From assembly GCF_009914755.1 (NCBI RefSeq), contig NC_060941.1: a DNA stretch of 64,000 nt; one strand, written 5' to 3'. Below, in pieces: positions 11,407-50,970 of this stretch. Source of the DNA: the human T2T-CHM13v2.0 reference genome, Homo sapiens. Numbering within the stretch: position 1 is the first letter of the stretch; the number at the start of each line of letters is the position of its first letter. A program made the position numbers and the translations under genes. Below the pieces are notes generated by a model. That model ran no database searches and was not told the origin of the DNA. It saw only the letters and a program-made list of their open reading frames with translations.

Positions 11407-11723
11407 CGGCTGGGCGCGGTGGCTCACGCCTATAGTCTTAGCACTTTGGGAGCCCGAGGCGAGCAGATCACCAGAGGTCGGGAGTTTAAGACCAGCTTGA
11501 CCAATGTGGAGAAACTCTGTCTCTACTGAAAATACAAAATGAGCCAGGCATGGCGGTGCATGCCTGTAATCCCAGCTACTCCGCAGGCTGAGGCACCAGA
11601 ATAGCTTGAATCCGGGAGGCGGAGGTTGCAGTGAGCCGAGATCGCACCACTGCACTCCAGACTGAGGGACAAAGTGAGACTCAGTCTCAAAAAAAAAAAA
11701 AAAAAGAAAAGAAAAAAAAAAAA
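11407..11723 (+). mobile_element. Alu containing the outer boundary of the left 2.1-kb inverted element
   Basis: Full Alu; its 3' ~115 bp, with private variants (cagactgagggacaaag, gcaccagaatagc), recur inverted at 49235-49350. Confidence 0.9.
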
Positions 11724-12401
11724 GGAAGCAAGCTGGGTATCTGCCTTTAGAGGTGTTGTACCTTTTCAGCATTATAAATGAATAGAGATGAGTGGCAATA
11801 GTTACTTTGGTCCATAGATTTTTGGTATCTTAACTAGTTTTGGATCTCTTCCACTAAAGGGATTGCCTGTTGCACGTTGTTAGGAATGTAAATACTGAAG
11901 GCAAACTGCCTGGGTTTGAATTTTGTTCTGTCCCTTGCACCCTGCCTGGGTTAAAATACTAGCTCTGCTTATTAAGTTCTTTTATGGTGATGACCTTTGA
12001 GCAAATGTCTTAGCTTCTGCTTTCCCAAGTAAATGGACACAATAGTTGCTACCTTGTGAAAGATTCATGTAATTGACCAGTGTTTACCAAGCAGCATCAG
12101 TGTTCAGTTTCAGTCATTGGTGATTCCGCAGTTGGACTGTGAGGGGGTGCTGGGGTGGGGGTGGTGTGTGTGTGTAGCACTTAATTGCATGCGGAAAGGA
12201 AAAGATACTTTTTATAACCGAGAGGCAGCTTTTCTCTGCTTTTGTGTCAAAAGGGAAGAAGGGAGTTTGGAGAGGGAAACCAATTCTCTTTAATACTAAG
12301 CTCTCTTCTTCAAAATCAGAGGTAGATAGAATGTGTAATAATTTACAGAATTTCTAGACTTCAACAATCTGATTTTTTTAAATGTATTTTTATTTTTTCA
12401 G

Positions 12402-12508
12402 GTTGAGACTGAGCTACAGTTAATCTGTGGCGACGTGCTGGATGCACTGGACAAACACCTCATTCCAGTAGCTGACACTGGCAAGTCCAAGGTTTTCTAT
12501 TAGGAAAT
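12402..12508 (+). pseudogene. YWHAE (14-3-3 epsilon) exon 3, copy 1, unprocessed, with stop
   Basis: ttttcag|GTTGAGACT...AAT|gtagg, 107 nt; [34 protein letters not shown] vs [40 protein letters not shown]. Confidence 0.92.
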
Positions 12509-13032
12509 GTAGGTTCTATACTAGAAAGGAAAATGTAAGATTAAAAGTTGGCCTTTTTAGAATCATGACTTTCTTCTATGTAGGTTTCCAACTTTTATTT
12601 AAAAATAATTGTTTAATGTTAGAAGGATAGTCAATGTTGGGATAAAAAGATGGTCAGGCTATTATAAAAAATGCATTAGCTTTTGCTTTACCTATTTATA
12701 TTCTTTTGCTTTCATGGGACCTATCTCATTCCCCTCCCCTAAACGGCCACACATTTCACAGTGCTGGCTGAAAGTTTCATGTAGAAATTTTATTTTATGA
12801 TTAATACACTTGTGCCATTTCTTGGAACCACTTGCTTGTTTAATTCTAGTCTATCAAGTGATAATTTTCTTGATATTTAGAGGCTCCTCAGTTAATTTCT
12901 GTGGGATTTTTCGTTATATTTAATAAGGAAAATAATAGGAAATAGCTAAGAAAAAAAGAAACAAAGCCAATTATTCCTGAGCGTGTTTAAAATTATTGAA
13001 GTACACTTGTTAATTTTTAGTATAGAACCTAC

Positions 13033-13139
13033 ATTTCATAATAGAAAACCTTGGACTTGCCAGTGTTAGCTGCTGGAATAAGGTGTTTGTCCAGTACATT
13101 CAGAATGTCGCCACAGATTAACTTTAGCTCAGTCTCAAC
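13033..13139 (-). pseudogene. YWHAE exon 3, copy 2 (open frame)
   Basis: Minus strand [35 protein letters not shown] with intact AG/GT. Confidence 0.92.
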
Positions 13140-13767
13140 CTGAAAAAATAAAAATGAATTTTAAAAAATTCAGATTGTTGAAGTCTAGAAATTCTGTAAG
13201 TTATTACACATTCTATGTACCTCTGATTTTGAGGAAGAGAGCTTAGTATTGAACAGAATTAGTTTCCCTCTCCAAACTCCATTCCTCCCTTTTGACACAA
13301 AAGCAGAGAAAAGCTGCCTCTGGGTCATCAAAAGTATCTTTTCCTTTCCGCGTGCAATTAAGTGCTACACACACACACCACCCCCACCCCAACACCCCAT
13401 CACAGTCCAACTGCAGAATCACCAATGACTGAAACTGAACACTGATGCTACTTGGTAAACACTGGTCAATTACATGAATCTTTCACAAGGTAGCAACTAT
13501 TGTGTCCATTTACTTGGGAAAACAGAAGCTAAGACATTTGCTCAAAGATCATCACCTTAAAAGAACTTAATAAGCAGAGCTAGGATTTGAAGCCAGGCAG
13601 GGTGCAAGGGACAGAACAAAATTCAAACCCAGGCAGTTTGCCTTCAGTATTTACATTCCTAACAACGTTCAACAGGCAATCCCTTTAGTGGAAGAGATCC
13701 AAAACTAGTTAAGATACCAAAAATCTGTGGACCAAAGTAACTATTGCCACATACCCAGTTTACTTCC

Positions 13768-47788: not shown

Positions 47789-47895
47789 GTTGAGACTGAG
47801 CTAAAGTTAATCTGTGGCGACATTCTGAATGTACTGGACAAACACCTTATTCCAGCAGCTAACACTGGCAAGTCCAAGGTTTTCTATTATGAAAT
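47789..47895 (+). pseudogene. YWHAE exon 3, copy 3 (open frame, identical to copy 2)
   Basis: ttttttcag|GTTGAGACT...GAAAT|gtagg. Confidence 0.92.
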
Positions 47896-48414
47896 GTAGG
47901 TTCTATACTAAAAATTAACAAGTGTACTTCAATAATTTTAAACACGCTCAGGAATAATTGGCTTTGTTTCTTTTTTTCTTAGCTATTTCCTATTATTTTC
48001 CTTATTAAATATAACGAAAAATCCCACAGAAATTAACTGAGGAGCCTCTAAATATCAAGAAAATTATCACTTGATAGACTAGAATTAAACAAGCAAGTGG
48101 TTCCAAGAAATGGCACAAGTGTATTAATCATAAAATTTCTACATGAAACTTTCAGCCAGCACTGTGAAATGTGTGGCCGTTTAGGGGAGGGGAATGAGAT
48201 AGGTCCCATGAAAGCAAAAGAATATAAATAGGTAAAGCAAAAGCTAATGCATTTTTTATAATAGCCTGACCATCTTTTTATCCCAACATTGACTATCCTT
48301 CTAACATTAAACAATTATTTTTAAATAAAAGTTGGAAACCTACATAGAAGAAAGTCATGATTCTAAAAAGGCCAACTTTTAATCTTACATTTTCCTTTCT
48401 AGTATAGAACCTAC

Positions 48415-48521
48415 ATTTCCTAATAGAAAACCTTGGACTTGCCAGTGTCAGCTACTGGAGTGAGGTGTTTGTCCAGTGCATCCAGCACCTCGCCACAGAT
48501 TAACTGTAGCTCAGTCTCAAC
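48415..48521 (-). pseudogene. YWHAE exon 3, copy 4 (with stop; 2 nt different from copy 1)
   Basis: Minus strand [34 protein letters not shown]. Confidence 0.92.
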
Positions 48522-49199
48522 CTGAAAAAATAAAAATATACTTAAAAAAATCAGATTGTTGAAGTCTAGAAATTCTGTAAATTATTACACATTCTATCTA
48601 CCTCTGATTTTGAAGAAGAGAGCTTAGTATTAAAGAGAATTGGTTTCCCTCTCCAAACTCCCTTCTTCCCTTTTGACACAAAAGCAGAGAAAAGCTGCCT
48701 CTCGGTTATAAAAAGTATCTTTTCCTTTCCGCGTGCAATTAAGTGCTACACACACACCACCCCCCACCCCAGCACCACCTCACAATCCAACTGCAGAATC
48801 ACCAATGACTGAAACTGAACACTGATGCTGCTTGGTAAACACTGGTCAATTACATGAATCTTTCACAAGGTAGCAACTATTGTGTCCATTTACTTGGGAA
48901 AGCAGAAGCTAAGACATTTGCTCAAAGGTCATCACCATAAAAGAACTTCATAAGCAGAGCTAGTATTTGAACCCAGGCAGGGTGCAAGGGACAGAACAAA
49001 ATTCAAACCCAGGCAGTTTGCCTTCAGTATTTACATTCCTAACAACGTGCAACAGGCAATCCCTTTAGTGGAAGAGATCCAAAACTAGTTAAGATACCAA
49101 AAATCTATGGACCAAAGTAACTATTGCCACTCATCTCTATTCATTTACAATGCTGAAAAGGTACAACACCTCTAAACGCACATACCCAGCTTGCTTCCT

Positions 49200-50970
49200 T
49201 TTTTTTCTTTTCTTTTCTTTTTTTTTTTTTTTTTTGAGACTGAGTCTCACTTTGTCCCTCAGTCTGGAGTGCAGTGGTGCGATCTCGGCTCACTGCAACC
49301 TCCGCCTCCCGGATTCAAGCTATTCTGGTGCCTCAGCCTGCAGAGTAGCTGGTATTACGGGCACTTGCCATCACAACTGGCTAATTTTTGTATTTTTCTT
49401 TCTTTTTTTTTTTTTTTGAGACAGACTCTCGCTGGTCGCCCAGGCCGGAGTGCAGTGGCACGATCTCCGCCTACTGCAAGCTCCGCCTCCCGGGTTCACG
49501 CCATTCTCCTGCCTCAGCCTCCCGAGTACCTGGGACTACAGGCACCCGCAACCATCCCCGGCTAATTTTTTGTATTAGTAGAGACGGGGTTTCACCGTCT
49601 TAGCCAGGATGGTCTCGATCTCCTGACCTCGTGATCCGCCCACCTTGGCCTCCCAAAGTGCTGGGTTTACAGGCGTGAGCCACCGTGCCCAGCCCCTGAT
49701 TTTTGTATTTTTCTTAGTAGAGACAGTTTCACCGTGTTGGCCAGGCTGGTTTCAAACTCCTGAACTCAGGTGATCCGGCTGCCTCAGCCTCCCAAAGTGC
49801 TAGGATTACAGGCATGAGCCACCACGCCTGACCTTATCACAGTTTTTTGTTGTTGTTGTTTTTTTTAAGAGACGGAGTTGGCCGGGTGCGGTGGCTCACG
49901 CCTGTAATCCCAGCACTTTGGGAGGCGAGGCGGGTGGATCACGAGGTCAGGAGATCGAGACCATCCTGGCTAACACGGTGAAACCCCGTCTCTACTAAAA
50001 ATACAAAAAATTAGCTGGGTGTGGTGGCGGGCGCCTGTAGTCCCAGCTACTCAGGAGGCTGAGGCAGGAGAATGGCGTGAACTAGAGAGGCGGAGCTTGC
50101 AGTGAGCCGAGATCACGCCACTGCACTCCAGCCGGGGCCACAGAGCAAGACTCCGTCTCAAAAAAAAAAAAAAAGAGAGACGGAGTCTCACTCTGTTTCC
50201 CCGGCTGAAGTGCGGTGGTGCGATCTTGGCTCACTGCAACCTCCCGCCTCCTGGGTTCAAGCAATTCTTTTGCCTCAGCCTCCCGAGTAGCTGGACTACA
50301 TGTGCACGCCGCCACGCGTGGCTAATTTTTTTTATATTTTAGTAGAGACGGGGTTTCACTGTGTTGCCCAGGCTGGTCTTGAACTCCTTAGCTCAGGCAA
50401 TGCGCCCGCCTCAGTCTCCCAAAGTGCTAGGATTATAGGCATGAGCCACTGCGCCTGGCCTATCACAACGTTTTAAAAGTGAACATATAAATATTCCTTA
50501 CATGTGTATCTACATTATTAAAAACCATAAACCAACTGAAGTATAAATGGGGGAACAGTTTAACACACATCAGTAAGACTGAAACTTATTTATGCTAAGA
50601 GAGAAAACATAAAATGATGAGTGCTAGGAGAATAACTGTTAAAAACATGCCCATTGGCCTGGTGTGGTGGCTCTTGCCCTGTAATCCCAGCACTTTGGGA
50701 GGCCGAGGCAGGTAGATCACCTGAGTTCAAGTGATCAACACCATCCTGGCCAACACGGTGAAACCATGTCTCTACTAAAAATAGAAAAATAGCTGGGCAT
50801 GGTGGTGGGTGCCTGTAGTCCCAGCTACTCAGGAGGCTGAGGCAGGAGAATCTCTCGAACCCAGGAGGTGGAGGTTGCAGTAAGGTGAGATGGTGCCACT
50901 GCACTCCAGCATGGGCAACAGAGAGACACTCCATCTCAAAAAAAAAAAAGAAAAGAAAAGAAAAAAAAAA
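49200..50970. mobile_element. Nested Alu cluster: chimeric antisense Alu (49200-49835) interrupted by AluY (49401-49695); antisense Alu (49842-50460) interrupted by sense AluY (49880-50175); sense Alu 50656-50970
   Basis: TSD ct(a/g)atttttgtatttttctt at 49381 and 49696; TSD agagacggagt at ~49868 and ~50176. Confidence 0.9.

What the first reader, a model, noticed from the sequence alone, without database searches (positions are those of the whole stretch)
11575..49350. A ~34-kb keratin cassette bracketed by inverted repeats that are themselves fold-backs
Seen: 11575-13660 and 47270-49350 are near-identical reverse complements, and each is arm-spacer-inverted arm. The layout is A> <B ...keratins... 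B> <A. The same four arms therefore give inverted homology (A/A and B/B: 2 and 0 differences in the 107-nt exon) and direct homology (A/B: 9 differences). From memory, ~2.1-kb AT-rich inverted repeats flanking the keratin cluster were reported near the SMS-REP crossover hotspot; I do not recall the internal fold-back or its YWHAE origin being stressed. Inference: substrate for recurrent inversion of the cassette, rarer deletion or circle excision, and cruciform-primed breaks.
Basis: partly seen in the sequence, partly recalled or inferred. Interest (0 to 1): 0.7.

Follow-up and report, generated by a model that had tools for sequence, protein, structure and literature searches.

The report
Folded-back YWHAE repeats flank keratin pseudogenes
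Two 2.1-kb mirror-image repeats, each an old folded-back scrap of the YWHAE gene, flank a block of keratin pseudogenes in the Smith-Magenis repeat region; they share variants with each other and one is letter-identical for 1.4 kb to a copy 1.6 Mb away, so they likely still swap DNA and could seed rare rearrangements, although no flipped block was found.

Summary
11572-13659 and 47269-49352 are ~99% inverted repeats around a 33.6-kb keratin-pseudogene duplication in the middle SMS-REP. Each is arm A + 494-nt spacer + inverted arm B. The unit is an unprocessed YWHAE intron/exon/intron fragment folded back once at a 2-nt microhomology; the junction is shared by 12 chr17 copies. The left unit sits between two chimeric Alus.

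The internal fold-back looks inert: arms ~6% apart, longest perfect run 76 nt, long spacer. Cruciform breaks and A/B deletions are unsupported.

The whole 2.1-kb units do exchange sequence. Of 19 informative sites, 0 separate left from right copies and 11 contradict that split (null maximum 4). New here: the left unit is identical over 1,426 nt to the distal-REP unit, in direct orientation 1.6 Mb away, across the likely RAI1 locus.

No inversion was seen: all three CHM13 paralogues keep one linkage, and a 44-genome call set lacks it. The repeat pair itself is recalled as published (Bi 2003, not readable here). Verdict: ordinary segmental-duplication mechanisms, with one testable clinical lead.

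The parts
11408..11720 (+). Chimeric Alu at the outer edge of the left unit; switch between 11572 and 11595
   Evidence: 7 of 7 diagnostic sites at 11549-11571 match the 20.87-Mb paralogue of the left flank, 18 of 18 at 11596-11699 match the unit's own Alu; 2 sites further left are unit-like
11572..13659 (+). Left 2.1-kb repeat unit (part shared with the right unit)
11792..12523 (+). Left arm A: YWHAE intron-exon-intron fragment, gene sense on +
   Evidence: collinear with parent locus C17:1,250,142-1,251,376, 81% with gaps
12402..12508 (+). 107-nt YWHAE exon copy in left arm A (not in the annotation; carries a stop codon)
12524..13017 (+). Spacer: the parent's next intron continuing from arm A
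   Evidence: parent and unfolded paralogues at 38.84 and 28.35 Mb run on past this point
13018..13019 (.). Fold-back junction, 2-nt (TA) microhomology inside a short imperfect inverted match
   Evidence: same junction in 6 17p11.2 and 6 17q copies
13018..13750 (-). Left arm B, inverted copy of arm A; holds the annotated YWHAEP2 exon (13033-13139)
   Evidence: hub annotation
12166..13591 (+). 1,426-nt tract identical to the distal SMS-REP unit (C17:16,764,566-16,765,991), same strand, 1.6 Mb away
13757..14065 (-). Chimeric Alu at the inner edge of the left unit; switch between 13973 and 14051
   Evidence: tail side follows the 20.66-Mb and 17q copies, head side follows the distal REP and the 20.51-Mb paralogue
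13660..47268 (+). 33.6-kb cassette, mostly a 93-95% copy of the type I keratin locus at C17:42.43-42.49 Mb (KRT17P5, KRT17P2, KRT16P1, KRT16P4)
   Evidence: hub annotation
47268..47269 (.). Junction of the truncated right arm B with keratin-locus sequence; at most 1-2 nt of microhomology
47269..47910 (+). Right arm B (truncated), exon copy at 47789-47895
47911..48399 (-). Right spacer (5-nt deletion relative to the left)
48400..49130 (-). Right arm A, exon copy at 48415-48521
49201..49860 (-). The unit's native outer Alu with a second Alu inserted in its middle linker; ancestral outer flank, shared with the 20.66-Mb copy

Best explanation
The two 2.1-kb inverted repeats are duplicated copies of one folded-back YWHAE gene fragment, likely made by a single old replication template switch, and they likely act as whole-unit recombination substrates kept alike by gene conversion rather than as hairpins. 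Steps: (1) a YWHAE intron/exon piece was duplicated from 17p13 (shown: collinear parent and two unfolded paralogues); (2) one lineage folded back at a 2-nt microhomology leaving a 494-nt spacer (junction shown; template switch inferred); (3) a truncated copy was joined to a duplicated keratin block, giving the arrangement seen in the distal REP (junction shown; order inferred); (4) a full-length copy was added, inverted, at the other end through two Alu-Alu switches, giving the middle/proximal arrangement (chimeric Alus shown; order inferred); (5) since then left- and right-type units have exchanged patches, within a REP and probably between REPs (mosaic pattern shown; conversion inferred). 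Crossover outcomes (cassette inversion, 1.6-Mb deletion or duplication) are predicted as rare by-products and were not observed.
For: Parent and paralogue collinearity. One junction in 12 of 15 chr17 places. Chimeric Alus at both ends of the left unit. The distal cassette ends in an unbroken Alu whose far flank is shared with a 20.51-Mb paralogue. Among five SMS-REP units, 0 of 19 two-versus-three sites split left from right and 11 of 19 contradict that split, 7 of them outside CpG and 8 pairing the two units of one REP; 1,600 no-exchange simulations gave a mean of 0.5 and a maximum of 4. Left/right distance within a REP (16/1904, 14/1909) is lower than between positional paralogues (19/1909, 27/1904). 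Alleles derived in both left units also appear in one right neighbour (3 sites middle, 2 sites proximal). 1,426-nt perfect tract with the distal unit. A and B arms stay separate, 5.4-6.8% apart.
Against: One haplotype only, so allelic reshuffling cannot be told from direct ectopic conversion. Variable sites cluster in tracts and are not independent; 4 of the 11 contradicting sites are CpG. The absence of left-versus-right sites alone is not decisive (P 0.88 if the split was recent). The distance differences are small counts. The arm tree has weak deep support (31%) and puts the unfolded 38.84-Mb arm with the 17q B arms (2.7%), so later conversion blurs the order of events. The order of steps 3 and 4 could be reversed (an inversion with duplicated breakpoint, then replacement of the distal end); the distal Alu head is only ~93% like the middle one. 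No ape genome was available.
Confidence: 0.75

Rival explanations
1. The cassette is a live toggling inversion: crossovers between the left and right units flip the 33.6-kb block, and the mosaic variants are left by repeated flips rather than by non-crossover conversion alone.
For: 557-nt and 428-nt perfect left/right runs reach the 300-500-nt minimum quoted in PMC2583991. Validated human inversions of 5.1-226 kb have 1.6-24-kb repeats (PMC3961182). Both middle units change affinity in the same interval, 12166-12189, as a reciprocal exchange would give.
Against: Same linkage in 3 of 3 CHM13 paralogues. 0 of 20 chr17 rows in 44 samples. Only two sites, both at CpG, support reciprocity. The repeats are at the short end of the known range. 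No PRDM9-A consensus match in either unit (motif recalled; 18 matches in the cassette).
Confidence: 0.25
2. The pair is the scar of one old inversion that duplicated the 2.1-kb breakpoint segment; the distal arrangement is derived.
For: The 20.66-Mb copy joins the right unit's outer flank to a full-length arm B and its Alu, as the left unit has, so each window unit keeps one ancestral side.
Against: The Alu after left arm B is itself chimeric, and the distal REP keeps an unbroken Alu with a flank shared with the 20.51-Mb paralogue; this model needs one event more.
Confidence: 0.15
3. The internal fold-backs extrude cruciforms or hairpins that break, and A/B direct homology excises the cassette.
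For: A single strand of the left unit folds into a 705-pair stem, -851 kcal/mol with DNA parameters, so a hairpin is possible wherever 2 kb of single strand is exposed.
Against: 494-nt spacer; 38 differences in 737 columns; longest perfect run 76 nt. A review states that longer spacers and lower identity reduce risk and that eukaryotic lagging-strand single-stranded zones are 100-200 nt (PMC7999016). A and B have not been homogenised. None of the unit boundaries found here maps at the hairpin tip except the founding junction; the 17q copies break inside the spacer, a weak point in favour.
Confidence: 0.07
4. The shared variants and the perfect tract are assembly or polishing artefacts of CHM13.
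For: Five copies at ~99% identity invite read mis-assignment; only one assembly was examined.
Against: Each 2.1-kb unit is short against long reads and has distinct flanks; each copy keeps private variants; the shared variants fall into several different pairings.
Confidence: 0.05

Closest known systems
~2.1-kb AT-rich inverted repeats flanking the KER clusters of proximal and middle SMS-REP (Bi et al. 2003, PMC1180396; content recalled, only its citation seen)
   Same: Same size, and present as a pair in proximal and middle but single in distal REP: almost certainly the same objects.
   Different: I recall no mention of the YWHAE origin, internal fold-back, Alu-Alu ends or variant sharing, but could not read the paper.
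Interlocus gene conversion in human segmental duplications (Vollger 2023, PMC10172114; passages)
   Same: Patches closer to a paralogue than to the positional copy; high-copy, ~99% duplications.
   Different: Inferred here from paralogues of one haplotype; the paper's main text has no 17p11 mention and its event tables were not among the files searched.
Inverted-repeat-mediated recurrent inversions (Aguado 2014, PMC3961182; Porubsky 2022 preprint and 2023, PMC10150506)
   Same: Repeat size, identity and spacing fall in the known range.
   Different: No second orientation is reported or seen; the listed 17p11.2 events are a 1.53-Mb distal-middle inversion (16,799,907-18,331,750) and one at 18.62-18.77 Mb.
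Palindromic AT-rich repeats (PATRRs) and other cruciform-forming palindromes (PMC7999016; passages)
   Same: Inverted arms in a rearrangement-prone region.
   Different: Long spacer, 6% arm divergence, only ~60% AT in the arms.
Alu-Alu-mediated rearrangement and microhomology template switching (FoSTeS/MMBIR; PMC2583991 passages, plus recall)
   Same: In-register chimeric Alus at two junctions; inverted duplication with spacer and 2-nt microhomology.
   Different: Fixed, ancient events, not de novo ones.

Membership tests
SMS-REP low-copy repeat (middle copy), KER cluster | Three ~99% paralogous copies on 17p11.2, middle one inverted | tested here: met
   Cassette probes hit 16.77-16.80 and 20.45-20.47 Mb on the minus strand at 99-100% (one search listed the proximal copy only); orientation stated in PMC12296005 (retracted review)
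SMS-REP low-copy repeat (middle copy), KER cluster | Inverted 2.1-kb pair in proximal and middle, not distal (feature recalled from Bi 2003) | tested here: met
SMS-REP low-copy repeat (middle copy), KER cluster | Position relative to the SMS/PTLS crossover hotspot | not testable with these tools
   papers with the coordinates were not held
Inverted-repeat-mediated recurrent inversion | Inverted repeats of 1.6 kb or more with a perfect run of 300-500 nt or more | tested here: met
   2.1 kb; 557 nt (middle) and 428 nt (proximal)
Inverted-repeat-mediated recurrent inversion | Both orientations exist among haplotypes | tested here: inconclusive
   one linkage in 3 of 3 paralogues; 0 of 20 chr17 rows in a 44-sample table; detection is poor in triplicated sequence (inference)
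Inverted-repeat-mediated recurrent inversion | Recurrence on independent haplotype backgrounds or in apes | not testable with these tools
   no other human or ape assembly held
Interlocus gene conversion between duplications | Variants shared across lineages beyond homoplasy | tested here: met
   11 of 19 sites against a null maximum of 4
Interlocus gene conversion between duplications | Non-reciprocal transfer with flanks unchanged | tested here: inconclusive
   flanks unchanged and most shared sites are homogenising, but two sites fit a reciprocal swap
PATRR-type cruciform palindrome | Short or absent spacer | tested here: not met
   494 nt
PATRR-type cruciform palindrome | Near-perfect, strongly AT-rich arms | tested here: not met
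   38 of 737 columns differ; arms 60-61% AT
Alu-Alu-mediated rearrangement | Chimeric Alu with in-register switch between two parental Alus | tested here: met
   switches at 11572-11595 and 13973-14051; parents are represented by paralogues, not the actual donors
Unprocessed (duplicated) pseudogene fragment of YWHAE | Exon with both flanking introns and splice sites, collinear with the parent | tested here: met
   AG/GT kept; 6 and 11 differences from the parent exon; parent named from the hub annotation and recalled position

The most novel reading that the evidence does not exclude
Doubling this unit in inverted orientation gave the 'inverted' middle SMS-REP a directly oriented partner for the distal REP. 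The 1,426-nt perfect tract is the non-crossover footprint of an ectopic pairing whose crossover outcome deletes or duplicates 1.6 Mb including RAI1; and haplotypes with the cassette flipped would put ~33 kb of 99% sequence in direct orientation, a hidden risk allele for small Smith-Magenis deletions and Potocki-Lupski duplications.
Probability: 0.2. Interest if true: 0.72.

Novelty: new member of a known kind. Interest (0 to 1): 0.45.

Why it matters
The middle SMS-REP is described as inverted and so not a deletion partner of the distal one (PMC12296005, a retracted review). The doubled unit makes four directly oriented pairs across REPs, one of them with a perfect run three times the quoted minimum for meiotic NAHR and spanning a PHD-type zinc-finger hit at 17.75 Mb that is likely RAI1 (name inferred). 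That gives an exact, PCR-testable junction for atypical 17p11.2 deletions and duplications, and a precise place to look for a 34-kb inversion that current call sets would tend to miss. An inversion would move only pseudogenes and predicted lncRNAs, so its importance would lie in repeat orientation. If neither event exists, this is a clean worked example of how a segmental-duplication mosaic is built.

Tried and rejected
Long Alu-containing genome queries were swamped by repeats; Alu-poor probes worked. Full-length distal and proximal cassettes were not obtained, so cassette-wide comparisons rest on search tables and on 1.5-kb flanks. The staggered-break inversion scar idea was weakened by the second chimeric Alu. 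A composite transposon reading was dropped because the arms are YWHAE intron/exon DNA with Alu-Alu ends; no transposase search was run. Processed pseudogene: rejected, introns present; the chr2 and two chr7 hits match the exon only. PRDM9-A motif: 0 matches in either unit. Literature: 10 searches found no paper on the fold-back, on YWHAE with SMS-REP (0 hits) or on this inversion; Bi 2003 and seven other ids were not held, so 'not in print' is unproven. The supplement of PMC12229492 covers protein-coding overlaps only; npInv's chr17 rows, PMC12485790 and the TBC1D3 preprint (0 hits for YWHAE) were uninformative.
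Full report
Observation. Self-BLAST of the window gives one long inverted match, 11529-13659 against 49396-47269, 98.1% over 2,134 columns and 3,654 bits; a shuffled unit reaches 28 bits. Thirteen of the 40 differing columns lie at 11536-11571, in unrelated Alu halves, so the repeat is 11572-13659 / 47269-49352. Each unit is a fold-back: left arms 11792-12523 and 13018-13750 around a 494-nt spacer; the right arm B stops ~90 nt early. 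The unit is 61.8% AT.

What the unit is. A genome search with the left unit gave 44 matches that fall into 15 chr17 places plus three exon-only hits on chr2 and chr7. The place at 1.25 Mb matches arm A and the spacer in one piece; its 107-nt exon has AG/GT ends and an open frame. I take it as YWHAE from the hub's YWHAEP2 label and recalled position. It and paralogues at 28.35 and 38.84 Mb run on unfolded. The other 12 places share one fold-back junction with 2 nt of microhomology: six in 17p11.2 with both arms, six on 17q with arm B and half the spacer. A and B arms differ by 5.4-6.8% and the parent by 11-12% in 556 gap-free columns; by recalled primate rates the fold-back is roughly 25-30 million years old (inference). 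The tree's deep node is weak (31%) and the unfolded 38.84-Mb arm is 2.7% from the 17q B arms, so later conversion has blurred it.

How the pair arose. The cassette (33,609 nt) is mostly a 93-95% copy of the keratin locus at 42.43-42.49 Mb. The right unit keeps the outer flank also seen at the 20.66-Mb copy and is joined bluntly to keratin sequence. The left unit is full length and has a chimeric Alu at each end, switching at 11572-11595 and 13973-14051. The distal REP has only the right unit; its cassette ends in an unbroken Alu at 16,799,881 whose far flank is shared with a 20.51-Mb paralogue. That point coincides with the left edge of the published 1.53-Mb distal-middle inversion call (16,799,907). 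The simplest order is distal-type first, left unit added by two Alu-Alu switches (inference). The left outer flank was found at 99% only in the proximal REP.

Do the units exchange sequence? In 11740-13649, five SMS-REP units give 19 two-versus-three sites. None separates left from right units; 8 are compatible with that split; 11 contradict it (6 pair the proximal two, 2 the middle two, 3 other pairs; 4 of 11 at CpG). Simulation without exchange, with 12-fold CpG rates, gave a mean of 0.5 and a maximum of 4 in 1,600 runs. With outgroups, 4 derived alleles are confined to the proximal pair, and 5 derived alleles of both left units also sit in one right neighbour; 9 sites could not be polarised. 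Within-REP distances are 0.84% and 0.73%; positional ones 1.00% and 1.42%. Left-only sequence differs from the 20.66-Mb copy at 3 of 96 and 17 of 183 (Alu) sites against 9 of 636 in shared arm B, in line with an old left unit, on small counts. Sites cluster, and one haplotype cannot separate direct conversion from allelic reshuffling.

The unexpected result. The left unit and the distal unit lie on the same strand, 1,599,597 nt apart, and are identical over 1,426 nt (window 12166-13591; C17:16,764,566-16,765,991). In that tract the right-middle unit differs by 6 substitutions and a 5-nt gap, the proximal units by 11 and 10. At the middle-distal flank divergence (15 of 2,770) the chance is 4e-4, overstated because the run was picked after the fact. 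Readings: direct distal-to-left conversion (about 0.45), a chain through a right-middle allele not present in CHM13 (0.4), reciprocal double exchange or artefact (0.15); these weights are my judgement. A zf-HC5HC2H hit at C17:17,750,353 is likely RAI1 (GRCh38 17.68-17.81 Mb), inside the interval.

Crossover outcomes. Perfect runs: left/right 557 nt (middle) and 428 nt (proximal); A/B 71-76 nt; quoted meiotic minimum 300-500 nt, with exceptions under 50-114 nt (PMC2583991). So inversion is plausible and A/B deletion much less so. Against inversion: identical flank linkage in all three paralogues and no matching row among 20 chr17 calls in 44 samples (PMC10150506 Table S1). That paper notes that inversions in duplications are often missed. 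Cruciforms: a 705-pair single-strand stem is possible, but the spacer is long and no perfect short-loop palindrome exceeds 8 bp; PMC7999016 says long spacers and divergence lower the risk.

Literature seen. Passages: PMC2583991, PMC12296005 (retracted; 31, 69), bioRxiv 10.1101/2021.12.20.472354 (32), PMC3961182, PMC7999016, PMC12485790, PMC10172114, PMC10150506. Supplements: PMC10150506, PMC12229492, PMC6044046, PMC10172114 (one file unreadable, event tables not seen). Term search only: bioRxiv 10.1101/2024.03.12.584650 (62). PMC8600007, PMC8981503 and PMC8327919 on arm-to-arm conversion: listing only. Bi 2003: citation only; content recalled. Unseen supplements (Porubsky 2022, Vollger 2023) may list this locus.

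Verdict. Real feature; the pair is probably already published; its anatomy, assembly route and exchange record were not found in ten searches but follow known mechanisms. New member of a known kind, interest 0.45. The 1.4-kb perfect direct repeat across the RAI1 interval is the lead worth following.

Noticed in passing
window 12402-12508, 47789-47895, 48415-48521: Three further YWHAE exon copies that the annotation does not list; only the left arm B exon is called YWHAEP2.
   Followed up: yes
L008-L013 (C17 37.19, 37.31, 37.41, 38.93, 39.03, 63.12 Mb): Six 17q copies keep arm B, the junction and half the spacer but have lost arm A at one shared break inside the spacer (window 12765); these regions are recalled as TBC1D3 clusters.
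   Followed up: partly
L006 (C17:20,656,462-20,661,469): A sixth, 96% full-length fold-back with the ancestral flanks; its arm B is 1.4-2.7% from SMS-REP B arms but its arm A is 4.3-6.1% from A arms, so it is a mosaic too.
   Followed up: partly
window 49397-49694: A second Alu inserted in the A-rich linker of the right unit's outer Alu, with an apparent target-site repeat; also present in the 20.66-Mb copy.
   Followed up: partly
window 49880-50460 and 62578-63283: Two small inverted Alu pairs (77-79% identity); ordinary.
   Followed up: no
window 15848-19074: 93-94% match to C17:5.013-5.016 Mb, a further copy of keratin-locus DNA on 17p13 (recalled as near USP6).
   Followed up: no
window 1476-11038: The left flank matches chr1:188.92-188.97 Mb at 70-84% in pieces, an old interchromosomal source or shared repeat.
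   Followed up: no
PMC10150506 Table S1, chr17:42,430,631-42,441,222: Two 'complex/inverted duplication' calls over the keratin parent locus look like cross-mapping from these pseudogene cassettes and vary among samples, hinting at cassette copy-number variation.
   Followed up: no
window 13475-14475: Two RefSeq enhancer calls overlap left arm B and the inner chimeric Alu; reads there may be multi-mapped among copies.
   Followed up: no
C17:16,766,060-16,799,881: The distal cassette is ~330 nt longer than the matching middle stretch (33,822 vs 33,488), about one Alu.
   Followed up: no
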